64,000 bases of DNA from contig NC_086097.1 of NCBI RefSeq assembly GCF_963921235.1, positions 27,592,001 through 27,656,000 on the forward strand. The letters are read 5' to 3'. Below the pieces are notes generated by a model. The model ran no database searches. It was not told the origin of the DNA and worked only from the letters and a program-made list of their open reading frames with translations. The position numbers and the translations under genes are program-made. This stretch comes from Mobula hypostoma. Lineage: Eukaryota. Below, piece by piece: positions 1,640 to 63,912 of the stretch; position 1 is the first letter of the stretch; every line of letters begins with the position of its first letter.

Positions 1640-1835
1640 TATGGAGCAATGCACAAAGTGCTGAAGGCATCAGTGGGTCAGGCCGCATCTACGGAGGGAA
1701 ATGGACAGTCGACATTTTACAGGTGAGATCTTTCATATGGCTGATCTCTCAATCCATCTGAAGGGCCTCAACCTGAACCATCGACTGTCCATTTCCCTTC
1801 ACAGATGCTGTGGGACCCTGTGTGACACTCTAAGG
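1640..1835. mobile_element. Old inverted pair of PLE termini with degenerate hammerheads
   Basis: ggaaatggacagtcga (minus arm) and tcgactgtccatttcc (plus arm) are reverse complements. The architecture matches 58873-59082. Confidence 0.7.
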
Positions 1836-3417
1836 TTTGGGTGGTATAACGCTGGCTTTCAGTCCAGTCATGTTGCATGAAGTCTGCATTTAACAAAAAA
1901 AAATTCAGCTTCACCCTGAACTTATCTGTCACCCCTGGTTTTGATGTTGGTGTGAATTCTTCACTTTAGAAAGAAATGTCTCCCACATTTCACAGCAGTG
2001 TATAACATTTCTTAATTCATTTTAATGAAATGAAATTTGGTATGGCTGAGGAGATCGGCATCTATTGCCCTACTGCCATTCAGAAGGAGGTGGCAGTTGA
2101 AACACCTCAGTCTTTTTGGTGAAGCTGCTCCCAAAGAGTTGTTAAGAAAGGAGTTCCAGGATTTAGACTTCAGCAGTGATAAACGATCAATGATACTCAG
2201 ATTCAGATGAATTTATTTCTCAGAAGTACATTGAAACATACAGTGAAATGTGTTGCATGCGTTAACAACCAGCATAACCTAAGGATGTGCTATGGGTAGC
2301 CCATAAGTGTCGCCACACATTGTGGTGCCTACATGGTATGCACGTTATATTCAGCAGAACAACACAAGCAGCAACAACAACACCAATACTCACCAACCCA
2401 CCCATGCCCACACACTGTGACAAAAAACACTCAGTAAATATACTCCTTACATGTACATTCACACACACAAACAAACATTGCCTTGTCATTCTGCTTTTGT
2501 TGCACTGAGTATACGCACTTCAGTGTCTTCCCTGATATAGTCTTAATGGGTCCTAAACCGAGCTGATTCACCATCAACGCTGCCCTCAACCGCATCTCTT
2601 CCATTAATTTATTCTCTGATGCACTCGGGTTGGCTTTACGGTGCCTTTCTGCCATACACGACAGTATATTCCATTTCTTTAGTGATGAGTATATGTTGTT
2701 TATATACTGTACTGTGTTTAAGGCAGATACTTCTGTTTATTTTGCAATACGATTGTAACTACATTGTGGGGTGCATCATATTCTAACTTGTGTACTATTA
2801 AGTTAACTTTGTGGATATTTAAAGATGGTAGGTCCTGGTGCCTAATAAACAGGGCTCTCCGCCCTCTGTAGGGGAGAGAGATAGGGGCTGCAACGATTGC
2901 AACTTCACACTGGACCAGAATAAATACAGTGCTATTATTATATTTTCTGTTAGACATCTTTTTGTAAATATTGGCAGTTTTCCTTCAGCTATTTTTGCTC
3001 ATTTTTGTAAGTTTGACTTTTGGCGCACCTAATAAATACCCCTCCACTAAAGTGCTAAGTGACTCCAGCCATTTTTTCCTTTGGTCATAACCCACATTTT
3101 AGCATACAGGCAGCCCTTCAACTCTGGGGCTATGACCTCCTGTCCAAGTTCTGTGCTACAGTTTGGAGGGGAGCCTGCAGCTGGTAGAGTGAACTGAGCT
3201 TGTCCTTCTTGGTGGTGGAGGGTGAGATTGCGAGGTGCTGTCTGAGTAACTTGCCATGAGGGATTAGATTGCATTTTACAGGTGGCACTACTGCAGCCAT
3301 GGGTGTGTCTGTGTCAGAAGGAATGAATGTTCAGGATTATTGATGGGGAGCCAATCAATCAGGTTGCTTTAGCCAGGAAGGTGTTGATAGATGTTGGAGC
3401 TTCACTCATCCAAGCAA

Positions 3418-3834
3418 GTAGAGTTTATGGAAAGGTTGAATGAGCTACAGCTTTTCTCTCTGGAGCAGAGGAGGATGACAGGTGACTTGATAGACGCATA
3501 TCAGGTGATAAGAAGCCAGCATCTTTTTCCCAGGGTGGAAATGGCTAATACAAGGGGGCATAATTTTAAGGTGATTGTTGAAAAGTATGGGGGGCGGTGT
3601 TTGTCAGAGGTAGGATTTTTACACAGAGAGTGGTAAGTGTATGAAACTCACTGCCAGGTGTGGTGGTAAAGGCAGATTCATTAGGGGGATTTAAGAGACT
3701 CTTAGATAGGCACATGGATGAAAGATAAACAGAGGGTGCTGTGTGAGGAAAAGGTTAGAGTGATCTTGGAGTAGGTTCAACATCATGGGCCAATAGGCCT
3801 GTACTGTGCTGTACTGTTCTGTTCTAGCTTCACC
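3418..3834 (+). mobile_element. CR1 3' fragment flanked by a 27-bp direct duplication
   Basis: ERLNELQLFSLEQRRMTGDLI motif. atgttggagcttc(a/g)ctcatccaagcaa occurs at 3391-3417 and 3835-3861. Confidence 0.8.
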
Positions 3835-3869
3835 ATGTTGGAGCTTCGCTCATCCAAGCAATCATGCAT

Positions 3870-4690
3870 TATCTATCATGGAAAAGTTGAGTGACCTGGG
3901 AATTTTCTTTTTCGAACAAGGAAGATGAGAGATGACTTGACAGAAGTGTTTAAGATAAACAGAAGCACACATAAAGTGGACAAGCATCTTTTTCCCAGGG
4001 CAGAAATGGCTAATATGGGGGGGGGGGGGCATAATTTTAAAGTGATTGCAGGAAAGTATGGAGGGATGTCATAGAGAATGATTGGTGCATGGAACACGCT
4101 ACCAGAGGCCGTGGTAGAGGCAGACACGTTAGGGGCATTTAAGAGACTCTTAGGCACATGGATGTAATTGGGAAGGAAGTACAAAAGCCTTCGGACTCAC
4201 ACTACCAGGTTCAGAAACGGTTACCCTACAACTATCAAGATCCTGAACCAACCTGGATAACTTCACTCACCTGAACACTGAACTGATCCCACCATCTACA
4301 GACTCACTTTCAAGGACTCTTTACAACCCACATTCCCCAGATTATTTTCTTTGCACAATCTGTCCTTGCACATTGGCTGTTTGTCAGTCTTTGTTTATGT
4401 ATAGAATTTTGTAAATTCTTTTGTATTTTTTATTTTCCTGTAAATGCCTGCAAGAAAAAGAATATTAAGGTAGTATATGGTAACATAAAGCTACTTTGAT
4501 AATAAATTTTACTTTGACCTTGAAGGGTGGTGGTGGTGGAAGCAGATCTGATAGAGGCACCTAAAAGGCTTTTAGACAGGTACAAGATTATGCAGGTAAT
4601 AGAGGGACTTGGATCAGGCAAAAGATAATTAATTTAATTTGGCATTGTGGGCCGAAGTATCTGTTCCTGTACTGATCTGTTCTATATTTT
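3870..4690 (+). mobile_element. CR1 3' fragments with an intervening Rex1/Babar 3' end (about 4170-4520)
   Basis: CR1 tail motifs. The ggaaggaagtacaaaagccttcggactcacactaccaggttcagaaac block followed by ctttgataataaattt also recurs at about 45360-45715; the tail alone recurs at 43030-43385. Confidence 0.7.
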
Positions 4691-5214
4691 ATATCAGAAT
4701 CAGGCTTAATATCACAGGCATATGTCATGAAATGTGTTGTTTTTAATGATGGGCCATTAATGATGGATGCTGGGAAGGCTATTGCCCATGATGGATCTGA
4801 CTGAGTTCACAACTTTCTGCAGCTTCTTTCGATCCTGTGCAGTTGCCTCTGTCCCCACCCCCCATACCAGATGGTGATGCAGCCACCGTCTGGACTGCGT
4901 TCATAATCTTTAAACTGGTCACCCCTCAGTTATCTCTTTCTTGGAGAAATATGTCTTCATTTCTGAAGGTGGTTCAGGGTTTTGACCTGAAACATCAACA
5001 GTTCCTATTCCTTCCACACATGCTGCTCGACCCATTGAGTGTTCCTCCAGCAGACCATTTTTCCATTTCTTCTCAAATTTGGTATTTAAGTAACTTAAAT
5101 AATAGTATCAATTGAGGAGATAAGTTCAAAGGAGGTACGTGGGACAATTTAAAAAAAAAAAATTTACACATAGAGTAAACTGGAATGTGCTGCCAGAGGT
5201 GCTGGTGGGGTTCT

Positions 5215-8394: not shown

Positions 8395-11000
8395 TGGCTA
8401 TATTTCATTAGTAGTTTGAGAAGCTTTGGTATATCTTCAGAAACACTCGTAAATTTCTACAGATGTACTGTGTAAATCATTCTAACTGTCTACAGGTACA
8501 TCACCGTCTGGTATGGGGGGGTGGGGAGGAACTACTGCACAGGATCGCAGTAAGCTGCAGAGAGTTGTAAACTTAGTCAGCTCCATTATGAGCTCTAGTC
8601 TCTGTGGTATCCAGGACATCAAGGAGGGATGCCTCAAAAAGGTGATGTCCATCATTAAGGACCCTTGTCACCCATGTCACGCCCTGTTCTCATTGCTACC
8701 ATCAGGTAGGAGATACAGAAGCATGCAGGCACACATTCAATGATTCAGGAACAACTTCTTCCCCCACCACCAGGTCTTAGGTCCTCAGAACATCCAACTT
8801 TCTTTCACCTCACCATCCCTGAACACTCCAAACCTCCTTTCTCCTCAGACACTTCCAACCACCTTCCCCCTCCGATCCCAGCTCTCATCTATGCCAGGTC
8901 TTCACCATTCCTTCTGACCCCCTCTCTGAGGCAGAACGTCCTGTCCTCAGTAAGGGCCTCACCTTTGTCACTCTGCACCCACACCTCAATGAGTTCTGTA
9001 CCCACCATGGCATTGAGATCTTCTCTGGCCACCTCCAACTCAGAGCCTACTTCTTTGGCAAAGACTCTCCACCCCGCACTGATGACCCCGTCTCCTCTTC
9101 CTGGATACCATGCCCTGGTCTTCTGCCTGCTCTGGGCCTTTTCATTGCCAGCTTCCAATTGGATTTTTTCAATGATTTCAAGTTCCCTGGCTCTCATCAT
9201 CTTACTTTCACTACGGATGTCCAGTCCCTATACAGATCCATCCCGCACCAGAAAGACCTCAAAGCTCTCCATTTCTTTCTGGATACCAGACCCAACCAGT
9301 TCCCCTCCACCACCACTCTCCTCTGTCTAGTGAAAGTTGTCCTCAGTCTTAATCATTTCTTCTCTGGTTCTTCCCACTTCCTTCAAACAAAAGGAGTAGC
9401 CATGGGCATTCACATGGGTCCCACCTATGCCCGTCTTTTTGTCAGCTACATGGAACAGTCTATGTTCCAAGCCTACACGTGTCCACCCCCCAATTTTCCT
9501 ACACTACATCAACAACTGCATTGGTGCTGCTTTCTGCACCCACGCAGAGCTTGGCGACTTCATCAACTCTGCCTCCAACTTCCACCCTGCCCTCAAATTT
9601 ACCTGGTCTATTTCTGACACCTCCCTCTCCTTTCTCAATCTTTCTGTCTCTATCTCCGGAGTCAGCTTAACTACTGATGTCTATTATAAATCCACAGACT
9701 CTCACAGCTACCTGGACTATACCTCCTCCCACCATGTTACTTGTAAAAACGCTATCCCCTTCTCTCAATTCCTCCGTTTCTGCCACATCTGCTCAGGATG
9801 AGGCCTTTCATTCTTAAATGAAAGAAATGTCCTCCTTTTTCAAAAAAAAACCGCTTCCCTTCCTTTGCCATCAACGTTGCCCTCAACTGCATCTCTTCCA
9901 TTTCACGCACATCTGCTCTTACCCCATCCTCCCACCACCCTATCAGGAATAGGATTCCTCTTGTCCTCACCTACCACCCCACTAGTCTCCACACCCAGCA
10001 CATAATTCTCTGGAACTTCTGCCATCTCCACCGGGATCCCACCACTAAGCACATCTTTCCCTAGCCCCCACTTTCTGCTTTCCACAGGATCGCTCCCTAT
10101 GTGACTCTCTTGTCCATCCATCCCTCCCCACTAATCTCCCTCTTGGCATTTATCCTTCCTCTGCCCCTATACCTCCTCCCTCATTACCATTCAGGGCCTC
10201 AAACAGTCCTTCCAGACTCACTTCACCTACAAGTCTGTCGGGGTCATTCTACTGTTTTCAGTGCTCCCGGTGTAGCCTCCTGTTTATTAGCAAAACCCGA
10301 CATAGATTGGGTGACCACTACGCCGAGCACCCATTCTCCATCTGCCAGAAAAAGCGCGCTCTCCAGAGGCTACCCATTTTAATTCCACTTCCCATTCCCA
10401 TGTGCTAACCACGATCTCCTCTACTGTTGTGATGACACCTCCCCCAGGTTGGAGAACACCTGTGTAGCCTCCAACCTGATGGCATGGACATCAACTTCTC
10501 GAATTTCCAGTTATGCTCCCCCCACTTCACCATTCACCATCTCCTTTTCCTTCTCACCTTATCTCCATGCCTGCCCATCGCCTCTCTCTGGTGCTCCTCC
10601 CCCTGGTTTCACCTATCACCTTGTGCTTCTCTCTCCCCTCCTGCCACCTTGTAAATCTACTCATCTTTTTTTCTCTAGTCCTGCCAAAGGGCCTTGGTTC
10701 CAAATGTCGACTGTATTTTTTTCCATAGATGCTGCCTGGCTTGCTGAATTCCTCCAGCATTTTGTGTGTGTTGCTTCAATTTCCAGCATCTGTAGATTTT
10801 CTCTTGTTTGTGACAGCTTCTTCCCCTCCGCCATCTGATTTCTGAATGGACATTGAACCCATGAACACTACCTCACTACATATATATCTTGTTGTAATTC
10901 ACAGTTTTTTCTCTCTAGTATTATGCATTACATTGTGCTACTACCACAAAGTCAACAAATTTCATGAAATATGCCAGCGATATTAACCTGATTCTGATAT
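8395..11000 (+). mobile_element. Rex1/Babar LINE 3' fragment (8395-8764 and 10813-11000) split by a PLE
   Basis: KLQRVVNLVSSI...IIKDPCHPCHALFSLLPSGRRYRS is the Rex1/Babar ORF2 C-terminus. The sequence resumes after the PLE. Confidence 0.8.
8765..10812 (+). mobile_element. Penelope-like retroelement (RT plus GIY-YIG, frameshifted) with 3' hammerhead-bearing terminus
   Basis: DVQSLYRSIPH, FLQTKGVAMGIHMGP, FHPALKFTW, YYKSTDSHSYLDYTSSH and IPFSQFLR are PLE RT/thumb motifs. A GIY-YIG remnant lies at about 10220-10510 and a degenerate hammerhead at about 10677-10713. TSD aca(a/g)cttcttcccc at 8751-8764 and 10813-10826. Confidence 0.9.
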
Positions 11001-14605: not shown

Positions 14606-17600
14606 CTGTCAGACAAACAGCACAGGTGTTGGGCTGCTGCATCTGGTGATATTGAACCACAGGTTCTTCAGAAGTAAAGAATGAAGCATACAAGTTGGTG
14701 GTTATGTCCATTTTTATTAAATGTTAAAATAACAAAGAAAGAAGCGAAGAAAAATAAATTGTGGTTGCCTCAAACTCAGATCAGAGATGAAGCATATCCC
14801 ACTGATAAAAGTTAGTCTGATTCAAGTGGCATGGCACCTACTGCAGAAAAACTGAGAAGCTTCTCGAAAACACATAGTCAGCTATACTACAATTACCTGA
14901 AAATTTACAATTACCTGAACAGTTACATGTATATGCTGTAGGTGATTACATAAAAATTATAAGCAAGAATTTTCTTATTTTTTGTAGTTAAAACTACAAC
15001 AAAATTACTAGAAAAGTAACAATTCTACACCCTAATCCACCAGGGTGTAATTTGTTCAGTCTTTCTCCCCTTTTTGCATTTGCGATATCTTATAGATTTC
15101 AGAGCTTTCTCTCTGCCGCACAATTCAAAGGTTTACATTGAGATCACTCTTGCTGGGTTGGTAGCATACGTAAATCACAATTAACATCAGAGCAGAGCCA
15201 GACATGAATGTCAGGCTTGCAGTGTTACGGGGATTAATTACATTAAGATACATTTAATTTGAGCTGCAGCCAACAAGAGTGCTTAGTGCAGTACTTCTAC
15301 CTAGTCATGCTGTTGCTGCAGCTTGCTGCTATGTCGTTTCTTTGTTCATGCTTCAGTACACAATAACATTACAGGAGGGCTGCGTTCCTACAAACCCAAA
15401 TTTATTGTGCATTTCAATAATGTAAAGCCACATCATCTGCGGGAGGACCCAGAGGAAACCCACATAGCCATGAGGAAAACGTACAAACTCCTTATAGACA
15501 GCAATAAGAATCAAATCTCAATCTTACAGCTGACGCTGTAAGGCAATTGCACTAACCACTATGCTACTGTGCTGCCGGTGCAGTAGCTTTGCAGATGGAT
15601 AAGGTGGTAAAGAAGGCACATGGCATGCCGACCTTCATTGATAAAGGCCATCTTAATGCACTCTTACTGGTAATGACTGTTATTCACAAATGCAAAAGAC
15701 AGTAGACTCTTGCTCATTCCTGGCTATTGATGCTAGTCTACATCATCCATTAACTCTACAGCCCCTAAGTTCTAAGGGTTAGTTAATAGCCCTCTTGAAA
15801 AGATCGAACAAGAAGTGCCAATGTAACAGTGTACACATCCATCGGAAAACCCAAAATTTCAGGTTACAACTAAACTATTTTACTCAATGTTTCTTGCAGA
15901 TGCAAGTCTAGCTGAATTTGACAATGAAGCATTACTGCAGCCGCCAACAATGATCCAGACAGGTGCTCTTCTCCAAGTTTATTACAATGCCCAATCTCTT
16001 CTGACCAGACAATTGTATTATTAATGAAAGTAAAATTCAGCAGTTTCTTTACAATTTATATCTCTGTATTATTTATTTATTTTCCACTAGTATTATTATT
16101 TTGCATGATTTGTCTTCTTTGCACATTGGTTGTGTGTCTGTTTTTCATAAATTCTATTGTACTGTATTTCATTATTTTCCTGTAAATGCCTGCAAGGAAA
16201 TAAATTTCAAGGTACTAAATGTTAACATATTGAGTGCCTAAGACTTTTGTACAGCACTGTGGTAATTTTATGTTTAAGATCAATTGCACAGATTACAGGA
16301 AAGATATGTTCCTATAAAAAGGAATGACGGGGATAGAAAGACAAGAGAGGTGATGAATTTAGTCAAGAAGAAAAAAAAGGATGTAAAGCTTTGGTATACG
16401 GAGGAATTTAAGCTGGGGGGTTATATGGGAGGCAGAGTTTAAGGGTCGGCACAACATTGTGGGCTGAAGGGTCTGTACTGTGCTGTACTATTCTATGTTC
16501 TATGTTCTATAAGTCAGGATAAAAAAGAAGCATATGAGGAATATAAAGAAGCCCGAGAAGAACTAAAGAAAGGAATTAGGAAAGCCAGGAGGGGCTATGA
16601 AAAGTCCTTGGCAAGTAGGATTAAGGTGAGTTCCAAGGCATTCTACACATGCATCAAGAGCAACAGAATAGCTAAGGCAAGGTGGAAGCACTCAAGGATA
16701 AAGGAGGGAACATTTGTTTGGATGCAGATAATGTGAGGGAGGTACTTACTGAGCACTTCAGTATTTACCAACGAAAAGCATAAGGAGTACCAGGAGATCA
16801 GTGCTGAATAGATAAATATGTAACAGCATTTAGAGGTCAACAAGGAGGAAGTGTTGGGCCTCCGAATGAGTATTAAGGTGGATATGTCTCCAGGGTCTGA
16901 CAGAATTTACCCCAGGTTGTGGAAGGAGGTAAGAGATGAGATTGCTGAGCTCTCAACCAGTATCTTTGTGTCCTCTCTAGCAGCAGGCGAAGTCCCAGAG
17001 CACTGGCGTGTAACTAATGCTGTACCTCTATTTAAGAAGGGAACTAGGGAAAATCCTGGGAACTATAGACTGGTGAGTCTCATGTCAGTTGTAGGGAAAT
17101 TGCTGGAGAAAATTCTTAGGAATAGGGTATATGAGCATTTGGAAATATATCAGCGTGGCTCTGTGCAGGGCAGATCATGCCTTACCAACTTGACTGAGAT
17201 TTTTGACAAGGTGATGGGAGAGATTGATGAGGGTAGGGTAGTGAATGTTGTATACACAGACTTTAGTAAGGCTTTGACAAAGTCCTCATGGGAGGATAAT
17301 CCAGAAGATTAAGATGCAGGGGATAACAGGGAATTGGCTGCTTGGGTTCAGAACTGGCTTGTGCATAGAAGACAGAGGGTAGTGTTTGAAGGGACTTATT
17401 TGAGCTAGATGTCTATAAATTAGAAAATAAATATACCAAATATACTTTATATAAGTGACCTGGATGAAAATGTAGATACGCAAACACGAGGAAATCTGTA
17501 GATGCTGGAATTTCAAGCAACACACATAAAAGTTGCCGGAGTACGCAGCAAGCCAGGCAGCATCTCTAGGAAGAGGTACAGTCGACGTTTCGTCAGGACT

Positions 17601-17760
17601 AACTGAAGGAAGAGCTAGGAAGAGATTTGAAAGTGTGAGGGGGAGGGGGAGATCCGAAATGATAAGAGAAGACAGGAGTGGGAGGGATGGAACCAAGAGC
17701 TGGACAGGTGATTGGCAAAAGGAATAAGGGAGGATCATGGGACAGGAGGCCCAGGGAGAA

Positions 17761-18796: not shown

Positions 18797-19456
18797 AAAG
18801 AAAGAAAAGGGGGAGTGGGGGAAAACCCAGAGGATGGGCGAGGGGTATAGTGAGAGGGACAGAGGGAGAAAGAGGAGAGAGAGAGAAAGAATGTGTGTAT
18901 ATAAATAAATAAATAACGGATGGGGTACGAGGGGGAGGTGGGGCATTAGCGGAAGTTTGAGAAGTCAATGTTCATGCCATCAGGTTGGAGGCTACCCAGG
19001 TAAAGACAAAGCCACACTCAGGTTGGAGGACATCCATGGCCTCCTCTACTGTAAAGATGAAGCCACACTCAGGTTGGAGGAACAACACCTTATATTCCAG
19101 CTGGGTAGCCTCCAACCTGATGGCATGAACAATGACTTCTCAAACTTCCGCTAATGCCCCACCTCCCCCATGTACCCTATCCATTATTTATTTATTTATA
19201 TGCACACATTCTTTTGTTCTCGCTCTCCTTTTTCTCCCTCTGTCCCTCTCACTATACCACTTGCCCATCCTCTGGGCTTCCCCCTCCCCCATTTCTTTCT
19301 CCCTAGGCCTCCTGTCCCATGATCCTCTCATATCCATTTTGCCAATCAACTGTCCTGCTCTTGGCTCCATCCCTCCCCCTCCTGACTTCTCCTATCATTT
19401 CGGATCTCCTCCTCCCCCTCCCACTTTCAAATCTCTTACTAGCTCTTCTTTCAGTT

Positions 19457-19493
19457 AGTCCTGACGAAGGGTCTCGGCCCGAAACGTCAACTG
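19457..19493 (+). ncRNA. Minimal type-I hammerhead ribozyme motif in PLE terminus
   Basis: AGUC-CUGACGA-A-GGGU(CUCG)GCCC-GAAA-CGUC^AACUG. The conserved core is complete, with a 4-bp stem II and a GUC cleavage triplet. There is one mismatch at the base of stem I. Confidence 0.75.
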
Positions 19494-32273: not shown

Positions 32274-32302
32274 CTGGCTCCAAAAACAAGAACAATTGCT
32301 AT

Positions 32303-39085: not shown

Positions 39086-39087
39086 AT

Positions 39088-48386: not shown

Positions 48387-50607
48387 TTTTGATAGAAGGT
48401 AAAACATATCTCTTACCTAAAATCACAATGATCCATCAAAATATCGTCCTATTACTTGTTTACAAACTATATAAAAAATTGTAACATCATGCATCTCGCA
48501 ACTAATTACCACTCGCTTAGGTAACCACAATATACTCACAGAAGAACAGAAAAGATGCCATAAGGGTATGAAAGCATGTAAAGAACAACTGATAACATAT
48601 TCCATATTTCTAAATCAAGCCCAAAGAAAAAGCAGAAATCTTTCATGTGATAATATATATTGACTACCTAAAAGCATTTGATTCTATCCCACACTCGTGG
48701 TTAATAGAAGCTCTTTATGTATATATAAACTATACCCAATATTTGTGAAATTCCTACAACATCTGATGAAGCATTGGCATACTAGAATCACACTATCCAT
48801 TAACAACCGAAAAAAGAACAACCACTGTTATCAAAATAAACCGAGGCATTTTCCAGGGCATCTCTCTAAGCCCACTATGGTTCTGCCTAGCTTTAAACAT
48901 GCTCTCGAATTTAGTGAATTAGATTTTAATAGGATATCAAATTAAAAACAACCAAATGAATTATACCTTGATACACCTTCTATACATAAACAATTTGAAA
49001 TTATAATTAACTTCATCAGTAAAGCTAAAATAATTAATTCAAATAGTACAACCATTTTTGAAAGATAGAAACATAAACTTTGGACCAGATAAGTTCAGAA
49101 CATCAAACATAAAGAAAGGTGCAATAGAGCTAGTAGAATATAAAACACAGCATCAGGATACAATACCAACAATGGATGAATATGAAACATACACGTATTC
49201 GGGATATCAACAAACAAAGGAAATAGATCATGGTGTGATAAAGGGAAAACTGTCACAGAATTTACTTCAAGGCTTAAGAAAATCTGCCAAACAGAGCTCA
49301 GTAGTAAAAATATAACAAAGACAATAAACACTTTTGTTATACCCATATTAACAGATTTTTCTGGCATAATATCTTGGTCCAAAACTGATCTAGAAAACTT
49401 ACAAAGAAAAATAAAAACTGAAATGACAAATTTTAGAAAACGCTTTGTACACCCGAATACACTTAGATTAACACTTCCTAGGACAGGAGGAGGAAGAGGA
49501 ATAACAGATATAAAAAAATTACACAACAGTCAGATAAAATTAAGGATATACCTTCATCAACAAAAACAGGATTCAGTATTCCATGCAAGCACATGCAATT
49601 CTGATAAGAAGTACACACCACTAAACTTAAATGAAACAACACCCAGAAAAATGCATAGATTATCACTGTAGAAGAAAAGGTTAATCAATGAAAGAACATG
49701 ATCTTCCATGGGAGACATCTCAGCAGAATAGATGTTGACAAGGAACTATCAAACACCTGGCTCAGAGTTGGACACCTCTTCCCAGGAACAGAGGGGTTTT
49801 TTAAGGCAATACAGGAGCAGGTGGTTGACACAAAAAATTATCAAGAATACACAATAAAAACCCAACAAATTCAAAACAATAAATGCAGAAAATGCCAAGA
49901 GAAACCAGAAACAATGAAGGGTCTCAGCCCAAGATGTTAACTGTTTACTTTTTGCCATAGATGTTGCCTAACCTGCTGAGTTCCTCCAGCGTTTTGCTCA
50001 GAAACAACCTAGAACATTACAGGATACTGCAGCAGTTTAACTCAATCTACAGACACAATCAAGTGGCAAATATCATTCACCAAAATCTTGCTTTAAAATA
50101 CAAACTCATAAAAGATACCATACCTTACTATAAATAAAAGCCTGATTCAGTCTTAGTCAGAATCCTACAAATTATTTTATGACCGATCCATTATTACACA
50201 TAGGACAATCTATAATAACCACCCGGATATAATATTATAGAATAAACAAGCAAGAACAACTTACTTCATAGATATAGCCATTCCAAACACACAAAATATA
50301 CAGAAATCAGTAAGTGAAAAAGACCAGAAATATGCTGATTTAAAAGAGGAAATTGAAAGGCCGTGGAACACAAACTGGGTATACATTGTCCCAATAGTAA
50401 TAGCTATAACCGGTATCAGTCCAAAGTCACTACACAATAGCATTAACCAATTAAGCCTACACACCAATATTTATGTAAATCTCCAGAAAGTCACAATACT
50501 AAGCACTACTAGAATAGTCCAAAAGTTCCTAGTAATTGAGAAATGGAGTGCTCTTGGCTATGCCCATACCTCAGGTTTTATGAGCTTGAGTTGAGAAAAA
50601 AATAAAA
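48387..50607 (+). mobile_element. R4/Dong-clade non-LTR retrotransposon (RT, CCHC knuckle, RLE endonuclease), degenerate
   Basis: DPSKYRPITCL, IDYLKAFDSIPHSWL, RGIFQG, RLTLPRTGGGRG, CRKCQEKPET..HITGYC, RHNQVA, HPDIIL...FIDIAIP...EKDQKYADL and IVPIVI..TG. Confidence 0.88.
49915..49998 (+). mobile_element. 84-bp solo PLE terminus starting inside the hammerhead core
   Basis: TSD cagaaacaa at 49906-49914 and 49999-50007. It interrupts the R4 zinc knuckle. Confidence 0.85.
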
Positions 50608-53307
50608 GCATAATCATAATAAACAAGTAAATAAGCAATAAATATCAAAACATCAGATGAAGAGTCCTTGAAAGTGAGTCCAGAGGTTGTGGGAACAATT
50701 CTGTGATGAAGTTGAATGAAATTATCCCCTTTGATGCAACGCCCGATGGTTGAGGAGTAATAACTGTTCCTGAACTTGGCGGTGTGAGTCTTTAGGCTCC
50801 TGTACCTCTTTCTAATGGCAGCAGCAAGAAGACAACATGGCCTGAGAGGTGGGGGGTCCTTGATGATGGATGCTACTTTCCTGTGATTGTGCTCAATGGT
50901 GGGGTGGGGAGGGCTCTACCTGGAGTGTATCCACTACTTTTTGTAGTTTTCGTTTTCAGTTCAAGGGCATTGGTGTTTCCATAAAGGCCATGATGCAGCC
51001 ATGATACTCTCCATCGCACATCTATGGAAGTTCATCAGTTTTAGATGACGTGTCAAATCTGCGCAAACTTCCAAAAAAGTAGAGGCACTGCTGTGCCTTC
51101 TTTGTAACGGCAGTTATGTGCTGCACTCAGGACAAATCCTCCAAAACTACAACAGAGGAATTTGAAGTTACTGACTCTCTCCACATCTGATCCTCCGATG
51201 AGGACCGGCTCATGGACCTCTGGTTTCCTCCTCCTGTAGTCAATATTCATCTCTCTTCTACATGCTGCTTTGTCACCACCTTTGACTTAGCCCACAACAG
51301 TGGTTGCTAGTTACAGTGGTGACTGGTGCTGCGCCTCAGGGTTCAGTCCTGGGCCCATTATTGCTTGATATCTATACCAATGATTTGGATAAAAATGTAC
51401 AGGGGCTGGTGTTTAAGTTTCCATACGACACTGGTATAGGTGAAATAGTCAATGAAGAAAGTTATCAAAAGTGATAGGGCAATCTTGATCAGCTGAGTAA
51501 GTGGGCTGAAGAATGGCAAATGGAACACGCCATTGATAAGTGAGAGATGTTGCATTTTGCAAAGTCAAATCCGGATAGTACAATCACAGTTAACAGCACG
51601 TTCTGGAAGTGTAAGAACAGAGGGACCTTGGAGTTTAGAATTCACCGAAAGTGGAGTCATAGCTGGACAGAAGGCTTTTGGCATAGATATATGGTAAGAG
51701 GAAAGAAGGGTAAAGTTTTTCCACAGAGAGAGTGGCTGATATCTGGAATGCCTAAGCAGGTACAACCAATACAATTAGACATTTAGACGAATTCTTAAAT
51801 GGAAAAAGCATAGAAGAATATGTTCCTAATGCAGACAAGAAAGATTAGTGTTAATGGGCAAAAACTCGGTATGGACACGATAGGGCCATTTCTGTGCTGT
51901 ACAGCACTATAACTCTCTCTTACTCATTTGGGAGGCAGCTATGATTAAACGGAGGATGGATGGGAGAAATACTGACAAAATTACATTCTGCAAGTTGACT
52001 TTAAGGTTAAATAGAAATTCGTACAAGGACAATGAACGACTTTAAAAACCAATTCTAAAAGAGAACACTATAAAACAGACATTAAAATATAAAATTGAGA
52101 TGGAACTTTCCATTATGTAATTCTGCCAGCTGAGCTTAAACACTAGGGAGACATTGCTCTGATTAGAATATTACCGGCTGACAATGAAAGGTACCATATG
52201 GCAATATAATTCTCAAATCTATGAATAATTCTGCTAAATCCTAATACTGGATGGACAATTTTGTGTGATTCATGTCTCCTGCGCTTTAGCAAATCATCAC
52301 GGCACGCCAGCACCACCAAACACAATTAGGCATTGGTTCAGTTTCCGGGCATCACTTAATGAATCCTAGCCCTTGCACTTTTGACCAAATCAAGTTAATT
52401 TTTATAAAATAATTATCAGTAGAACAGGAAAACAACAAAGGCATGGTTGTGAGTGCACATAACTCTTTCTTGCAGTATTGACAGATCATAATTTCGGATG
52501 TAATGTGCTGCTCATCTGTTTTCTTTTTGACATCTTTGTTACAATGTTGATATTATAAATTTATCCATAGATGTGCCCTAGGCAGAAAAGACCCTAATCA
52601 GTGATGTGCAGGCTAATCTTTTGTTTTAAAGCCACCACCATCCATCAAACTGATCCTGTCTTCATCAGTATCAACACATTTGTATTGCTTGGTGGGGATT
52701 ATCACTAATTGTCAGGACACTAAACTGGATTAATATACCCTCTGCCTGGTTGGGACTGTAATTGCAATCTTCCAAATGAAACATGAATGAAGTCAGCTAA
52801 CCCAGGCCAAATCTAGGTTCAAACCAAGACCATTCCAATAGGTGCAGTTAGCAACTCATTCAGGTTTTCTGATTCTGTGGAGTCTCTGGCTATGTACTGC
52901 ATAAAGATATTAGCTTAATTTGTCATGTACTTTGAAACATCAAAACATACAGTGAAATGCGCTCTTTGCATCAACGACCAACACAGTCCAAGGATGTGCT
53001 GGGGGCAGCTGGCAAGTATCCCCATAGTGACAACATAGAATGCCCACAACTTACTACCATTATGTCTTCCGAATGTATGTGGAAGGAAATCAGAGCATCT
53101 GGAGGAAACCCATGCACTCACAAGGAGAACGTACAAACTCCTTATAGACAGTAGTGGGAAATTAACCCAGGTTGCCGGTGCTTTAAGTTATTATGCTAAC
53201 TGCTACACTATTGAGACATATATCTACAGATCTGGGTGAGGTCAATTAGGATATCTCCACCAAGCACTAATAACAGCCACCTGTTAATAATAAATAATTC
53301 TGTCAGA

Positions 53308-53785
53308 GTAACCTCCAACCTGATGACATGAACTTTGTTTTCTCTAACTTCTGGTAAATTCTACACCCCCCCCCCCAACAATGTCGTTTTCCATTCCACA
53401 TTCTGGCTTCCCACCTGTCCATCATCTCCCTCTGTTGCCCCTCCTCCTTCCCTTTCTCCCACAGTCCACTGTCCTTTCCTACCAGATTCCTTCTTCAGCA
53501 TTTTACTTCTTCCACCTATCACATCGCAGCTTCTCACTTCAACACCACTCTCCACCCATTCACCTACCATCCCATCTGGTCTCACCCATCACCTGCCAGT
53601 TTGTACTCCTTCCCCTCTCCGCATCTTATTCTGACTTCTATTTCCTTTCCAATCCCGATGAAAATCTCAGCCCAAAATGTCGGCTGTTAATTACTCTCCT
53701 TAGATGCTGGCTAATCTGCCAAGTTTTTCCAGCATTTTGTATGTGTTGCTCTGGATTTCCAACATCTGCAGAATCTGTTGTGCTT
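53308..53785 (+). mobile_element. PLE 3' terminus; further degenerate copies at 4970-5070, 28070-28200(-), 34715-34850, 35600-35800, 40460-40615(-), 54105-54195, 55085-55520(-) and 56180-56640
   Basis: Shared block: degenerate hammerhead, then gatgctgcctgacctgctgagttcctccagcattttgtg, then ccagcatctgcaga. Confidence 0.75.
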
Positions 53786-54813
53786 AAAATTATTCCCACT
53801 TGCCTTCATAGGATATTATTTTTCTATGCCTTGTCTATTTAAGAATATGTCCTTATGCCTGATTCCACAGTTCACTTTAGCATTCCAACTATCAATCACT
53901 GACTCTGTGAAATAACTTTCCCCTTAGATCCCTTTTTAAATTCCTCACACTCGTCCTATACCTATGTCCTCTTATTTATGATATATCTACAATGAATTCC
54001 GCTATCTATCCTATCTATGCCCCTCAGAATCCTATAACCTTATTCTGCTTCTTCTTTCATCACTTCCTTCAGGAAGTATGCACAAAGACCCTTCATCACT
54101 TCCTTTCTAGTCCTATGAAGGGCCTCAGCCCAAAACATTGACTGTTTATTCCCCTCCACACATGCTGCCTGACCTTCTGAGTTCCTTCAGTGTTGCAGTA
54201 TTAAAAACTCTCTCCAAAATCTCCATGCCCACAAACTTCAAACAGAACAAACCAGAAGCACAAACAAAGGTATATGAAGCCTGAGGTACAAAGCCTGCAA
54301 ACAGCTGGCAAGATGCAGTTTCAGTCCCTGAATTAGGTTATCAGGAGTATTCAGATTTTCCCGGCCCAAGCTGCAGCTTCTGTTAACATTACCACTTAAT
54401 GGACAATTAAGCAGTAAGAAACATTAGCATCTGAGAAAAAGCTCTTGCATTATATCTTACATGGTGGTACAAAAGTACGTCGTCACTGTCAATTAAACAG
54501 GTCCTATTTCATCGTCCTGAAAATAGAATGGCCCAGTTATTGTATAACTGTACAATTATTTATACAAACTACCAATCTACTATGGCAGTGATAATGAATA
54601 AGATATGTTATACGATAAAGATTACAGTATTATAGCCTGCAAGATAGTATGTATTTTTCTGCTATAATGCAGCCTAATTGCTGTAAGTAATTGCTAAATA
54701 ATTGCTGTAAATAGGGAAAAACCTTTTTACGGAAAAAACACCAGGGTGACATCAGCTTTGTTAGCTTTCCCACGTCCCTCAGTCGCTCACTCATCACACG
54801 CCCACTCACTCAC

Positions 54814-54973: not shown

Positions 54974-56969
54974 CTGACAAAAACAGATCTAACCTACACT
55001 TGAAATCATTCAGCACAGCCTGCAATGTAGAAATTCACAATTCTCTCCTACCTACTGTCTCAAGGAATAATGCCTGAACCAATAGACAGAGCAACACACA
55101 AAATGCTGGAGGAACTGAGCAGGTCAAGCAGCACCTATGGAGAGGAAAAAACAGACAACATTTTGAGCTGAGACCCTTCATCGGGACAGGAAAGGAAAGG
55201 AGCAGAAGCCGGAATAAGAAGGTGGGAAGAGGGGTAAGAATATACACTGGCAGGTGATAGGTGAGACCAGGTGAAGGGAAAGGTGAGTGGGTGGGGGAGG
55301 AAGGATGAAGTGAGGAGCTGGGAGATGATAGGTGGAAAAGGGAAAGGGCTGATAGGAGAGGACAGTGGAGCCTAGGAGAAAGACAAGGAGGAGGGGTACC
55401 AGAGGGGGATGATGGGCAGATGAGGAAAAGAGATTGGGTAAGAAGGGAGCCAGAGTGAGGAATGGAAAAAGAGAGAAGGGGGAGGGTATTAAATATTACT
55501 GGAAGTTAGGGATATTGGTGCAGCCTCACCCCAAAGGAAGTTCTATTTGACTCATGCCAACTAATCTATTTGTTACAGTCATACCTATTATTGTCCCAAA
55601 GTATCTTGTTTTCATTCTCAATATCTCTATCCCCCCTCAATGTGATCTGAAGTCCCAAGCCTATTTATAGTGCCAGCGATAGGTGAAAAAAGAGTATGTA
55701 CGTTCTCCCCATAAGTGAGTTTCCTCTGGGTGCTACAATATCCTCCCACATACCAAAGATGTACCGGTTAGAGTTAGTAATTTGTGGGCAACCTATGCTG
55801 GCACTGGAAGCTTGACCGTATTTGCGGGTTACTCCAAGCACGTATTTGGACTGTGTTGGTCGACTCAAATGACACATTTCACTGTACGGGTTGATGCTTC
55901 AAAGTCAAAGCCAAAGTAAATTTATTATCAAAGTATGTATATGTCACCGTATGCTTCTTTAAGATTCATTTTCTTGCTTTGATGTACATGTGACAAATAA
56001 AACTAATCCCTAATCTCTTTCAGTCCATATTCATATTCTTACTTTGAACTTTTTTTTCTTTTCACCATCTCTGTTGTGATGCAAACTTGAAAAGATTCAA
56101 ATTGTGTCTCTAGTTTTACTGGGTGGGTTCAACTCTGTTGTACTTCTAAGCAAGCACAGAATTGAATTCAATTCAGAGCAAACTGTTCCCCTTCCGTCTC
56201 TTTTTCATTCCTTCTGATCTACCAGGGTTCTCCTACACACACACCTAGCTTCCCACCCTCAGTCGCTCTGGGTATCCCCTCCCCCACTGTTCCCATCTGT
56301 CCTCCCTACCTCCCTCACTTGGTTCCATGCACCACCTTTCTCTCACATCAGATTTCACCATCTGCAGCCTTTCGTCAACTCCATCTATCACTGTTCAGCA
56401 TATGTCACTATTCCCAGTGCCCCCACCTCTCACACCTCTTCACCTGGATCCACCTATCACCTGACAAATCCCTGCCCCACCTCCAATCCTTCCCTCTACT
56501 CTCTCAGTCCAGATAAAAGGGTGTCGACACAAAACGTTGACTGTCCATTTTCCTCCATAGATGCTGCTTGACCCTCTGAGCTCCTCCAGCAGTCTGAGTG
56601 TTGCTCCAGACCAGCATCTGCAGTCTCTTGTGTCTCTAGAGCTGGAAAGTTTTGACTGAAAGGAAAAGCTGATGTACCATTCTCTACAGAAGAGCAAAGA
56701 GTGAATTAAAAGGTCTTTAAAATTTGAGAGCATTTGCCAGCCTCGACAAATAGAAATTGCAACCATTTGCAGGTATGTCCATGTATCAATACACAGTAAA
56801 TCCAACTTCTTTATTCTGCATGGAATGGGAATATGGAAACTGTTCCCACATGGAATACTTCATATATATTGTCCAATATATCAGAATCAGGTATATTATT
56901 GCTGACATATGTCATGAAATTTGTTGTTCTGTGGCAGCAATATGGTGTAATGCAAAAATATAATATAAA

Positions 56970-58065: not shown

Positions 58066-58872
58066 TTCCAATAAGGAAAAAATATAAATGCATATATATC
58101 CTGGCTGCGAGGTTTGCTGAAGCTACTTGAGAGAGTATAAACTAGCTTTGCAGGGGGCTGGGAACTGGAGCCCCAAATCAATAAGGGAAGGATTAGACCA
58201 GAGGTATTGAAAGGCAAAGTCAAAATAACAGGAATGATGGGCCAGATAGCTTTAAGTGTGTTTATTTTAATGCTAGGTGTACTATGGGTAAGAGTGATGA
58301 ACTTAGAGCATGGAACAGTGATTACTGAAACTTGGTTGCGAGTGGAAGGAAAGGGTGATTAACGTACCAGGTTTTTGAAGTTTCAGAAAAGATAGAGGAG
58401 GAGGTAAAAAGAGGGTGTGGAGTTGCACTACTAATCAGGGACAATATCACAGCTATACTCAGAGACATAATGGAGGGTTCAGACACTGAGTCCATTTGGG
58501 TGAAACTCGGGAATAGGATGGGTGCAACCACACTGATGGGATTGCACTACAGACCCCCTAATAGCCACTGGGACATTGAGGAACAGATATGTAATCAGAT
58601 TTTAAAAATGTGACAAAATAATAGGGTTGTTGTCATGGGGGATTTCTACTTCCCTAATCTAAACTGGGACCTTCTTAGTGTAAGGGGTTTAGATGGGGCT
58701 GAATATATTAAGTGTATCCTGGAAGGTTTCTTAAATCAATATGTGGCTGGTCCAACCAGAGCTGGGGCTGTACTGGACCTGGTGTTGGGTAATGAACTTG
58801 GCCAGGTGACTGACGTTTCAGTGGGTGAACACTGACCACAACTCCTTTACTTTCAGGATAGCTATATACTTG

Positions 58873-59082
58873 CAAACAACAGGAATTCTGCAGATGCTGG
58901 AAATTCAAGCAACACACATCAAAGTTGCTGGTGAACGCAGCAGGCCAGGCAGCATCTCTAGGAAGAGGTGCAGTCGACGTTTCAGGCCGAGACCCTTCGT
59001 CAGGACTCCTGATGAAGGGTCTCTGCCTGAAACATCGACTGCACCTCTGGCCTGCTGTGTTCACCAGCAACTTTGATGTGTG
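58873..59082. mobile_element. 210-bp palindromic PLE-derived mini-element with two opposed hammerhead motifs
   Basis: Exact 14-bp TSD tagctatatacttg at 58859-58872 and 59083-59096. Minus arm 58873-59007, plus arm 59008-59082. Confidence 0.92.
58971..59007 (-). ncRNA. Minimal type-I hammerhead ribozyme motif (best-preserved copy)
   Basis: AGUC-CUGACGA-A-GGGU(CUCG)GCCU-GAAA-CGUC^GACUG. Stem I AGUC/GACU, stem II with a G-U closing pair, palindromic ACGU stem III. Confidence 0.8.
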
Positions 59083-60383
59083 TAGCTATATACTTGGATA
59101 GGTATGGTCCAAGTTAAATTGGAGTAGGGTAAATTACAAGGACATTAAGTAGAAACTAAGAAGTATTAATTGGGAACACCTTTTTTCTGATGTCCACATC
59201 AGACTTGTGGAGGGTGTTTAAAGATCAATTGCACAGAGTACAGGAAAGGTATGCTCTTGCTAGAAGGAAGGATGGGGATGGGAAGATAAGAGAACATTGG
59301 ACATCCAGAGAGGTGATAAGTTTAGTCAAGAAGAAAAAGAAAAATAATGTAAAGCTTCAAATGTAAGATCAAACGAAGCATACGAAGTATAAAGACACCA
59401 GAAAAGAACTAAAGAAGGGGATTAGGAAAGGTAGGAGGGCCCATGAAAAGTCCTTGGCAAGTAGGATTAAGGTGAATCACAAGGCACTCTATACGTACAT
59501 CAAGAGCACAAGGATAACTAGGGAGAGGGTGAGACCACTCAAGGATAAAGGGAAGAACATTTGCTTGGACGCAGAGAATGTGAGTGAGGTACTTAATGAG
59601 TACTTTGCTTCAGTATTTACTAAGGAAAGGTGGATAACTCCCCAAGTCCTGATGGAATTTTCCCCAGGTTGTTGAAAGAGGTAAGAGATGAGATTGCTAG
59701 GCCCTTAACAAGTATTTTTCTTTTACCCTCTCTAGCCACAAGCAAGGTCCTAGAGAACTGGCGAGTGGCTATTGTTGTACCTCTATTTAATCCTGAGAAC
59801 TACAGACCAGCGAATCTCACGTCAGTTGTTGGGAAGTTGCTGGAGAAAATTCTGAGGGATAGGATATATTGAGCATTTAGAAACTCATGGCCTAATCAGG
59901 GAGAGCCAGCATGGCTTTGTGCGGGGCAGGCCGTGCCTTACCAACTTGATTGAGTTTTTTGACAAGGTGACAAGAGAGATTGATGAGAGTAGGGCAGTGG
60001 TTGTTGTCCACATGGATTTTAGTAAGCTGTTTGAAAAAGTCCCTCATGGGAGGCTAATCCAGAAGATTAAGATGCATGGGGATCCGTAGTGAAATGTCTG
60101 TTTGAATTCAGAACTGGCTTGTGCATAGAAGACACAGGGTAGTAGTTGCAGGGACTTACAAACGTTTGTACTTGAGATGAAAATCTATAAATAGTATATA
60201 AATATACTAAATATACTGTATATAAATGTCCTGAATGAAAATATAGATTGGTGAGTTAGTAGAGTTATGCCGAGACTGGTGGAGCTGTGGATAGTGTAGT
60301 AGACTGGCAAAGAATACAGTACGGTATAGATCAGTTGCAAATCTGCGCTGAGAAACGGCAAATGGAGTTTAACCCAGATAAAT

Positions 60384-61380: not shown

Positions 61381-61759
61381 TAAATGCGAGGTGTTGCACC
61401 TTAGAGGGTAAATGCAAGGAGCCAGTAACAGTGTTGCTGAGCAAAGAGATCTTGTGATCCAGTTCATTACTCCTTGAAAGTGGCTACGCAGGTCAACAGG
61501 GTGATTAAGAAGGCTTATGGAATGCGATCTTCTATTCTTTGAAGCATTGAGTTCAAAAATCAGGAGGGATATTGCAACTTTATAAAATCTGGTTGAGCCA
61601 CAAATGGACTATTGCACACAGTTCCGGTTGCCCCCCTATGGAAAGGACATTGAGGCACTGGAGAGGGTGCAGAAGAGGTTTACCAGGTTGCAGAGGGCAT
61701 GTGCTATTACAAGCGGCTGGATAAACTTGGACTGTTTTCTCTGGAGCGTCAGAGGCTGA

Positions 61760-63010
61760 CGCTGTTAGCCTGACATCAGTGGTTGGGAAGTTGTTGGAAT
61801 TGACTGTTAGGGATGAGCTTACAGAGTACCTGGAGGCACATGACAAGATAGGCCAAAGCCAGCATGGTTTCCTGAAAGGAAAATTCTGCCCGACTAACCT
61901 ACTGCAATTTTTTGAGAAATTACAAGCAGGGTAGACAAAGGAAATGCAGTAGATGTGATGTACTTGGATTTTCAGAAGACCCTTGACAAGGTGCCACGCA
62001 TGAGGCTGCTTAGCAGAAAACAGAGATTGGGAATAAAAGGGATCCTATTCTGGCTGGCTGCCGGTTACCAGTGGAGTTTCACAGGGGTCGGTGTTAGGAC
62101 CGCTGCTTTTTATGATGTACATCAATGATTTGGACTATGGGATTAACGGATTTGTGGTTAAATTTGCCGATGATACAAAGATAGGTGGAGGAGCGGGTAC
62201 TGCTGAGGAAACAGAGAGGCTGCAGAGAGACTTTGATAGTTCAGGGCAGTGGGCAAAGAAGTGACAAATGAAATACAATGTGGGAAAGTGTATGGTCATA
62301 CACTTTGGTGGAAGAAATAAACAGGGAGACTATTATTTAGATGGGGAGAGAATTCAAAATGCAGAGATGCAAAGGGACTTGGGAGTCCTTGTGCAGGATG
62401 CCCTAAAGGTTAACCTCCAGGCTCTATAAGGCACTTGTGAGACCGTACTTGGAGTATTGTGTGCAGTTTTGGGCTCCTTATTTTAGAAAGGATATACTGA
62501 CATTGGAGAAGATTCATGAAAATCATTCCAGCAATGAAAGGGTTACCGGATGAGGAACATCTGGTAGCTCTTGGGCTGTATTCCCTGGAGTTCAGGAGAA
62601 TGGGGGGGGGGGAAGAGGATCTCATAGAAACATTCTGAATGTTAAAAGGCCTGAACAGATTAGATATGGCAAAGTTATTTCCCATGGTAGGGGAGTCTAG
62701 GACAACAGGGCACGACTTCAGGATTGAAGGGCTTCCATTTAGAACTGAGATGCGGAGAAATTACATTAGTCAGAGGGTGGTAAATCTGTGGAATTTATTG
62801 CCACAAGCAGCAGTGGAAGCCAAGTCATTGGGTTTATTTAAGGCAGAGATAGATAGGTTCTTGATTGGCCAGGGCATCAAAGGGTATGGGGAGAAGGCAG
62901 GGGAGTGGGGATGACTGGGAGAATTGGATCAGCCCATGATTGAATGGTGGAGCAGACTCGATACGCCGAATGGCCTACTTCTGCTCCTTATCTTATGGTC
63001 TTATGGACAC
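61760..63010 (+). mobile_element. 5'-truncated CR1 (different subfamily)
   Basis: QHGFLKGKFCPTNLL, SGVSQGSVLGP and FADDTKIGG motifs, with the (cttatggt)n tail. Confidence 0.88.
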
Positions 63011-63754
63011 CCACCATCCACGTTCTGCTCTCTTTTTGCTATTACTATCAGGCAGGAGGTATAGGAGTCTCAGGACCCTGTCCTGTGGGGAACATGGCTT
63101 ACTTCGATTGTTGAAAGTCGCTTTGTCGTGATTCATTAGTTTAGAAACTGCAGCTGGTTTTCCCCTTGGAGAGCTGCCTGGTGTCTTGTTTCAAATATCC
63201 CAGGTATAAAATAGCATGTGGAAGGGGCTTGCTCTTTCCTCTTTTGTTTAGGACAAGCCATGCAATAACTATTTGGAAGGTATGCTTTGCGCGTATTTTT
63301 AACTCAGTATGTTGGTTGAATATTCAACTTTACCGTTTCTGTAACTTGGGGAACTTGAATGTTTGGTCAAATTTTTACTGTTTGTAAATCAATGATTAAT
63401 ATGCTAATTCACAGACAGTGTCTTCTGTCTCACTTGCCAGACCTGCAAACCTGATTCAACATTACATCTTGGCATTGCGAGCAGGGTATGGCTTTTTGAG
63501 GAGAAATGTATTTCTTTATATAACACTCTGGGAAAGATTTCACTGCTAACATAATGGTCTTTCACAGGTTTGGTGGGACCAGAGTGTGTATTCCCTAGAC
63601 TTACACAGATCAAGGAAACCGGGCTTTCATTTAAAACAGTGGACTCCCCACCCCCACCCCCGGCCGATATGAGAGATGCAGAATCCCAGGTTGGACAGAT
63701 AGTAGTGTGGGCTTTGGAAGTCTTGCCAACCTACTGATGGGTTATGGAATGTCT

Positions 63755-63912
63755 GTAACAAACAAGGGAAAATCTGCAGATGCTGGAAATGTGAGCAACA
63801 CACACAAAATGCTGGAGTAACTCAGCAGACCAGGCAGCATCTAGGAAAAGAGTACAGTCTATGTCTTGGGCCAAAACCCTTGAAGCCTGCTGAGTTCCTC
63901 CAACATTTTGTA
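63755..63912. mobile_element. Short inverted pair of PLE termini
   Basis: The minus arm ends in a degenerate hammerhead (cagtctatgtcttgggccaaaacccttg). The plus arm gcctgctgagttcctccaacattttgt follows. Confidence 0.7.

What the first reader, a model, noticed from the sequence alone, without database searches (positions are those of the whole stretch)
1640..63912. Window-wide family of hammerhead-bearing PLE termini, with breakpoints clustering at the ribozyme
Seen: more than a dozen copies of one terminus in 64 kb, ranging from intact (19457, 58971) to heavily decayed (1700-1790, 4970, 10677, 28130, 30728, 40520, 53650, 54110, 55150, 56505, 63855). Several short copies begin or invert at or next to the hammerhead. 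49915 starts inside CUGAUGA, 59008 starts just before it, 34715 starts just after the cleavage site, and the 1640-1835 and 63755-63912 pairs invert there. Inference: ribozyme cleavage or its structure defines template ends or template switching during retrotransposition. Extrapolated to the genome, this would be a very large reservoir of intronic ribozyme motifs.
Basis: partly seen in the sequence, partly recalled or inferred. Interest (0 to 1): 0.7.

Follow-up and report, generated by a model that had tools for sequence, protein, structure and literature searches.

The report
Penelope copies stop at hammerhead's front
These are real, very abundant broken ends of a known kind of jumping gene carrying a known miniature self-cutting RNA motif, and about a third of young copies stop at the motif's front edge rather than at its cut site, likely because the template RNA begins there and the copying enzyme runs off its end.

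Summary
Confirmed: 19 arms (about 15 insertions) of a Penelope-like element (PLE) terminus with a minimal type-I hammerhead, flanking a TTC7-like exon. Only one hammerhead (58972-59007, minus) is fully intact. Breakpoints do cluster, but at the ribozyme's 5' edge (mode 31-33 nt upstream of the cut), not at the cut. In 137 young insertions, 40 end at -24..-44 against 5 expected; older subfamilies peak at -31/-32. Genome-wide, the cut site is only about 3x one control base and about 10x below -32. The hotspot persists in a subfamily with an A6C core change, so cleavage is likely not its cause. TSD-flanked solos, tail/no-tail arm pairs (26 of 27) and rearranged copies ending twice at the same base point to run-off at the RNA's 5' end, probably a transcription start; trimming or a splice-site roadblock remain open. 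54,217 intact-looking motifs genome-wide; activity unshown. PLE hammerheads, inverted arms and internal priming are published; I found no paper on this hotspot. The scan noted it before on other DNA of this genome.

The parts
1633..1736 (-). old-subfamily arm, 5' break about -25, head-to-head with the next arm
1750..1825 (+). old-subfamily arm, 5' break about -33
   Evidence: 3' end approximate
4956..5052 (+). decayed terminus, 5' break about -35
8776..10813 (+). 5'-truncated, frameshifted PLE (RT remnant) ending in the terminus; its hammerhead at about 10677-10714 reads C at core position 6
   Evidence: (RVT_1 E 1.4e-4); start approximate
17478..19001 (-). tailed arm of a young two-armed insertion, split by a later insertion at 17764-18798; stem II deleted
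19032..19547 (+). tail-less arm of the same insertion (15-nt TSD); C3 at 19461, predicted cut after 19488, G1.1 changed to A
28047..28180 (-). decayed terminus, 5' break about -51
30502..30825 (+). decayed terminus with upstream pLTR; probably continues at 28639-28877 across a later insertion
32152..32298 (-). host TTC7-like internal coding exon (acceptor not fixed exactly)
34717..34822 (+). short terminus starting at +3; no TSD found
40467..40614 (-). decayed terminus, 5' break about -93
49914..49996 (+). solo short terminus starting at -25 inside CUGAUGA, 10-nt TSD
53297..53785 (+). decayed terminus with long upstream part
54091..54190 (+). decayed terminus, 5' break -42 to -52
55055..55562 (-). 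decayed terminus with long upstream part
56293..56630 (+). decayed terminus with upstream pLTR
58872..59007 (-). young tailed arm starting at -32; holds the window's only intact minimal hammerhead (58972-59007), sense to the host gene
59007..59091 (+). tail-less partner arm starting at -30; the pair has a 16-nt TSD
63755..63881 (-). tailed arm, 5' break -22
63885..63914 (+). short partner arm, 5' break +31

Best explanation
These are 5'-truncated and head-to-head insertions of a Neptune-type Penelope-like retrotransposon whose 5' ends pile up at the first bases of hammerhead helix I, likely because the element's RNA starts there and the reverse transcriptase, primed about 100-140 nt inside the RNA, runs off its 5' end. 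Shown: two 3' start points (about +65 and +105), one per arm; TSDs; the hotspot in four subfamilies; rearranged copies that end twice at the same base. Inferred: the protein binds either the 5' or the 3' copy of the terminus in a transcript; the 5' copy gives a short strong-stop-like cDNA that is joined to the target, to the second cDNA, or jumps; the 3' copy gives ordinary long copies. Inferred, least certain: the RNA 5' end is a broad transcription start cluster (-80..-24, mode -32). Run-off at an RNA 5' end of any origin: about 0.7; as a transcription start: 0.45.
For: Hotspot: 40 of 137 young insertions end at -24..-44, 5.0 expected from near flanks (P 7e-23); 29 of 236 old arms at -31/-32; a simulation with uniform breaks put 0 of 162 far breaks there; 46 of 68 old hotspot arms have an adjoining inverted arm or a TSD. 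Many solo hotspot copies abut their TSD with 0-1 extra base, and none of the 25 young solos printed shows a shared upstream exon. Two-armed units: 26 of 27 have one tailed and one tail-less arm, arm reaches correlate (rho 0.61), arms differ 4.2% against 7.4% for random pairs. In 10 simple rearranged copies the outer 5' end matches the internal jump point within 1 nt in 3 (0.1 expected) and within 8 nt in 5 (0.3 expected), never lies more than 8 nt beyond it, and all 4 filler-type jumps coincide, two of them at non-hotspot bases (-54, -75). The tail runs on into the ORF (ATG near +137) in a full tandem unit of 3489 nt. Internal priming at two adjacent sites on both target strands, with no need for cleavage, is shown in vitro for the anole PLE (PMC11167929, parts 1-2 read). 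-32 sits in a YYANWYY initiator-like context in all four consensuses (consensus motif recalled).
Against: No cap-derived extra G at -32 in the young subfamily genome-wide (753 G of 2484 = 30.3%, 29.9% expected), although old copies show G before -31/-32 in 16 of 29 (P 0.004). In D. virilis Penelope the start lies 46 nt before a 75-nt intron (PMC2377424 passages) whose 3' end maps to helix I (PMC4209133), so about 120 nt upstream of the equivalent place. About 70% of young insertions pass the site, and only 6 of 30 ORF-bearing copies that reach -20 stop by -44. Tandem units show no general sequence discontinuity at the ribozyme (1.8% upstream, 1.8% in -32..-1, 3.0% in +1..+30). No RNA 5'-end data. 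The rearranged set is small (10) and was defined after looking.
Confidence: 0.45

Rival explanations
1. Run-off at an RNA 5' end made by 5'-to-3' trimming that halts at the protein-bound ribozyme fold, not by transcription start.
For: The edge tracks helix I in all four subfamilies whatever lies upstream; no cap-G in the young subfamily; the downstream jump points also cluster (9 of 14 at +224..+298), as a protected fragment would; the anole ribozyme needs the protein (PMC11167929).
Against: The mode lies inside helix I, not a few bases before it; part of the +238..+290 cluster is microhomology-guided.
Confidence: 0.25
2. A pause or roadblock on a longer RNA: splicing factors on the branch point-pyrimidine tract-AG that ends at -31, or the intermolecular helix of a hammerhead dimer, stall the enzyme.
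For: All four consensuses have a pyrimidine tract and YAG at -33..-31, the young one with a TACTAAC branch-point-like motif; D. virilis has its intron end at helix I (PMC4209133); most copies pass through.
Against: Does not explain double ends at -54 and -75; no GT..AG joint to this AG among the 15 of 310 joints shown; no exon-1 remnant at solo junctions.
Confidence: 0.17
3. Fold-back or arm joining at the ribozyme's own inverted repeats (helix I, stem II) sets the break.
For: About 16 of the first 100 A/C-preceded -32 junctions and 15 of the first 100 +1 junctions read as helix I fold-backs (my count of the listings); explains the shoulder at -13..-30.
Against: Solo TSD-flanked copies show the same peak; arms have different 3' starts (26 of 27), which self-priming would not give.
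Confidence: 0.07
4. Ribozyme self-cleavage makes the template end.
For: +1 has 498 genome-wide junction hits against 163 at +3, about 3.4x after rough normalisation; 3 young arms start exactly at +1.
Against: -32 is about 10x higher; 0 of 209 old arms at +1; about 4 in 10 listed +1 hits look like microhomology or small deletions, as do many +3 hits; 9 of 20 C6-core copies break at -26..-40 although A6C nearly abolishes Mg2+ cleavage in another hammerhead (PMC7151607 passages). It may explain a small minority.
Confidence: 0.04
5. One palindromic mini-element amplified as a unit, or an alignment artefact at a subfamily boundary.
For: Upstream flanks differ strongly between subfamilies.
Against: Junctions differ copy to copy and short arms pair with long ones; young copies and the simulation exclude the artefact; none of 68 old hotspot arms has a pyrimidine-rich upstream flank.
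Confidence: 0.02

Closest known systems
[quoted passage not shown]
   Same: CUGANGA, one extra base before stem II, G10.1-C11.1 (or G-U), palindromic ACGU in place of helix III, 4-5 bp helix I; mostly single motifs from truncated PLEs, some opposed pairs.
   Different: 54,217 intact-looking copies against about 2,000-9,000 in the genomes named there; stem II only 4 bp; one subfamily mostly with C6; no breakpoint analysis in the parts read.
EN+ PLE insertion structure, Neptune clade (Craig et al. 2021, PMC8557442; 12 passages read)
   Same: 5' truncation, partial tandems, adjoining inverted truncated copy, 30-40 bp tail at one end, CX2-5CxxC linker.
   Different: No truncation hotspot at the ribozyme in the passages read; 7-18 nt TSDs are plain here.
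Poseidon of Anolis carolinensis in vitro (Frangieh et al. 2024, PMC11167929; parts 1-2 of 4 read)
   Same: Two adjacent internal initiation sites defining the tail; both target strands extended; cleavage dispensable.
   Different: There the ORF starts inside the ribozyme, here about 137 nt after the cut; 5' junctions were not profiled in the parts read.
D. virilis Penelope promoter and 5' UTR intron (PMC2377424, 12 passages read)
   Same: Internal pLTR promoter is precedent; a 3'-splice-site-like signal coincides with helix I here too.
   Different: Its start is about 120 nt upstream of helix I; no strong donor seen here within 120 nt; splicing not shown.
Non-LTR retrozymes (bioRxiv 10.64898/2026.07.22.740005; part 1 and 10 passages read)
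   Same: Short tandem hammerhead units derived from PLE ends; two such 341- and 435-nt tandems occur in this genome.
   Different: The window's copies are dispersed, TSD-flanked PLE products, not tandem arrays.

Membership tests
EN+ Penelope-like element | single ORF with PLE-type RT | tested here: met
   Full unit L203: one frame of about 1000 codons with one stop, RVT_1 E 1.3e-5 (below the curated cut-off), DKG motif
EN+ Penelope-like element | C-terminal GIY-YIG endonuclease | tested here: inconclusive
   GVIY...YIAET and CxxC...H...H read by eye; no Pfam GIY-YIG hit
EN+ Penelope-like element | pLTR from partial tandem, inverted truncated arm, one-sided tail | tested here: met
Neptune clade | CX2-5CxxC linker between RT and EN | tested here: met
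   C-x4-C-x2-C in L203; criterion from PMC8557442 passages
Neptune clade | RT phylogenetic placement | not tested
   no tree built
Minimal type-I hammerhead | core CUGANGA...GAAA...UH, helix I and II, palindromic 15.1-16.1 | tested here: met
   58972-59007 (-) and three of four consensuses; the fourth has C6 in 19 of 29 copies
Minimal type-I hammerhead | covariation in stems | tested here: inconclusive
   34 of 38 columns invariant; only C-G to U-G type changes
Minimal type-I hammerhead | self-cleavage as dimer or with protein | not testable with these tools
   the monomer folds helix I and stem II but pairs the core in an inactive register
Non-LTR retrozyme | tandem hammerhead-bearing units | tested here: not met
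   window copies are dispersed or head-to-head

The most novel reading that the evidence does not exclude
PLEs make a strong-stop cDNA like LTR elements: priming at +65/+105 on the 5' copy, run-off at a start site at helix I, then a jump to the RNA's 3' end, with the ribozyme (start to cut, -32..-1) serving as the terminal repeat for strand transfer. The hundreds of thousands of short and fold-back copies are failed jumps, and the ribozyme's fold, not its chemistry, is what the element keeps.
Probability: 0.2. Interest if true: 0.75.

Novelty: new member of a known kind. Interest (0 to 1): 0.45.

Why it matters
How PLEs transpose and what their hammerhead does are open questions (PMC8557442 calls the function unclear). 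A genome with an estimated 600,000 or more termini records the enzyme's stopping points base by base: they say that the front edge of the ribozyme, not the cut, bounds the template, and they name a site to test by CAGE and in the existing in vitro assay. About 54,000 intact-looking motifs are a large pool, but dimer or protein dependence makes host effects doubtful. The element type itself is known, and the scan has reported this hotspot before in this genome.

Tried and rejected
Rfam: no hammerhead hit, only chance miRNA hairpins. A DNA search with the 90-nt tail found nothing because its words are too common. Searches merged identical young copies by mistake; redone, whose numbers are used. 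Rows dropped before the young counts: loci chosen for length or ORF content, one misassigned old copy, copies running on into the ORF. One tandem (L203) suggested a template switch at the ribozyme (5 differences in 990 nt upstream, 6 in 112 downstream), but 23 tandems did not bear this out. Sequencing runs: no RNA holder listed; assembled contigs only, which cannot show starts; no start/end pile and no informative splice joint among those shown. Cap-G test negative at -32; -31 not tested genome-wide. Folding z-scores not significant. Literature: 8 searches; none listed a paper on a truncation hotspot at a PLE hammerhead or on PLE hammerheads in cartilaginous fish; most subscription papers and all supplements were unseen. 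One search was a throwaway alignment, unused. Orientation bias in the host intron (7 sense, 12 antisense arms) is too small to read.
Full report
Numbering: -1 is C17, the last base before the predicted cut; +1 follows it; C3 is -28; the 5' strand of helix I is -33..-29.

Observation. The window (64 kb of a 3.48-Gb genome; earlier scan notes call it a ray, not tested here) holds 19 arms of one terminus in about 15 insertions. A family HMM finds 21 hits and none in five shuffled and one reversed window. Eight of 19 arms break between -35 and +3, one of them near the cut. An internal TTC7_N exon on the minus strand near 32.2 kb, and no other exon among 148 of 207 segments scanned, make the surroundings most likely intron.

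What it is. A full tandem unit of 3489 nt was found elsewhere in the genome (L203). Its ORF has an RT, DKG, a C-x4-C-x2-C linker and a GIY-YIG-like end read by eye: a Neptune-type PLE by the criteria in PMC8557442. The terminus is pLTR, minimal hammerhead, then about 110 nt that run on into the ORF. Four subfamily consensuses were resolved; a fifth cluster of 5 copies was left out. Abundance: 60,223 exact copies of a young 30-mer, 15,947 of an old 34-mer, 54,217 intact-looking ribozymes; 223 termini and 25 intact motifs in 1.2 Mb of evenly spaced samples, about 650,000 and 72,000 if scaled; 687 copies of the ORF start.

Breakpoints. In 162 young arms chosen by an anchor at +23..+52, grouped as 137 insertions, the stop rate per base is 0.0023 (+22..+3), 0.0007 (-1..-12), 0.0066 (-13..-23), 0.017 (-24..-30), 0.032 (-31..-37), 0.011 (-38..-44), 0.0033-0.0035 (-45..-80) and about 0.001 beyond; 40 end at -24..-44 against 5.0 expected. 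Copies ending below +23 cannot be seen, and 95 of the 162 arms come from searches listing the start of one contig. In 236 old arms the peak is -31/-32 (29 arms; 0.060/nt at -31..-37), with 0 at +1; a simulation with uniform breaks gave no pile there, and 46 of 68 hotspot arms have an inverted partner or TSD. Genome-wide junction patterns give 2484 at -32, 498 at +1 and 163 at +3, roughly 0.11, 0.010 and 0.003 per arrival after scaling by sampled denominators. The -32 figure includes some seamless older copies and is higher than the 0.05 of the sample; there is only one control base. The cut site is a minor signal at most.

Conservation. The ribozyme is invariant in 34 of 38 columns across four consensuses, against 5 of 27 just upstream, 3 of 11 at +6..+16 and 33 of 44 at +17..+60. 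No compensatory pair. One subfamily, including the window's 10677 copy, mostly has C at core position 6 (19 of 29). That change cut Mg2+ cleavage of another hammerhead by orders of magnitude (PMC7151607), yet 9 of 20 such copies break at -26..-40, as do 9 of 16 A6 copies (the two sets were picked with one mismatch allowed and may overlap).

Mechanism. 3' ends are bimodal, about +65 and +105 (pairs). Of 27 two-armed units 26 have one of each, 26 show a TSD of 7-18 nt, arm reaches correlate (rho 0.61) and arms are closer than random pairs (4.2% against 7.4%). This fits two priming events, as in the anole element (PMC11167929). Solo hotspot copies abut their TSD with no shared exon. The most telling set is 10 simple rearranged copies (of 14 printed; four with three units, a further junction or a cut edge were left out) in which the enzyme left the pLTR, jumped to ORF sequence and came round again: the outer end equals the jump point within 1 nt in 3 (-75, -54, -31/-32; 0.1 expected) and within 8 nt in 5 (0.3 expected), and never lies more than 8 nt beyond it. 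Matching ends at non-hotspot bases point to molecule-specific RNA 5' ends. I infer run-off at the RNA 5' end (about 0.7), and take a broad start-site cluster as its likeliest source (0.45). Against: no extra G at -32 in young copies (30.3% against 29.9%), the fly element's start lies about 120 nt upstream of helix I (PMC2377424, PMC4209133), most copies pass the site, and 23 tandems show no general discontinuity at the ribozyme. A conserved pyrimidine tract and AG at -32/-31 keep a splice-site roadblock alive; trimming to a protein-bound fold is the strongest rival. No usable RNA end data.

Known and new. Minimal hammerheads in fish PLEs (PMC4209133), inverted arms with a one-sided tail (PMC8557442) and internal priming without cleavage (PMC11167929) are published. 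Eight searches listed no paper on this hotspot. Earlier scan notes on other DNA of this genome report it; I had written down the same reading before opening them, and they are not independent support. What I add from my own calls: the hotspot in old subfamilies with a simulation, its persistence with a C6 core, the negative cap-G test and the double-end test.

Verdict. Real, large and non-random; a new member of a known kind; cleavage is not the main cause; interest 0.45.

Noticed in passing
window 32152-32298 (-): Internal exon of a TTC7-like gene; the only exon found in 64 kb, so introns of 30 kb or more on both sides are likely.
   Followed up: partly
window 10677-10714 (+); subfamily 4: A prolific PLE subfamily whose hammerhead core mostly reads CUGC(C/U)GA (A6C), a variant reported to favour Mn2+ over Mg2+ (PMC7151607).
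   Followed up: partly
consensus -52..-31, e.g. window 19437-19458: Branch-point-like motif, pyrimidine tract and YAG end exactly at helix I in all four subfamilies, as the D. virilis intron does; no donor or spliced copy found.
   Followed up: partly
L285/L286 and L302/L303: Tandem 341-nt and 435-nt hammerhead-bearing units made of pLTR end plus ORF start: retrozyme-like derivatives of the PLE.
   Followed up: partly
14 rearranged ORF-start copies: Downstream jump points cluster at +224..+298 in 9 of 14, partly by microhomology; may mark an RNA 3' end or a protein footprint.
   Followed up: partly
window 17594-17600 (-): Clean deletion of stem II between two short direct repeats in a young copy.
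   Followed up: no
window 11353-11419: 67-nt inverted repeat at the end of another repeat family (weak Rfam hairpin hit), possibly a MITE end.
   Followed up: no
whole window: 68% of the window matches other sampled genome stretches; many other LINE-like fragments in both orientations.
   Followed up: no
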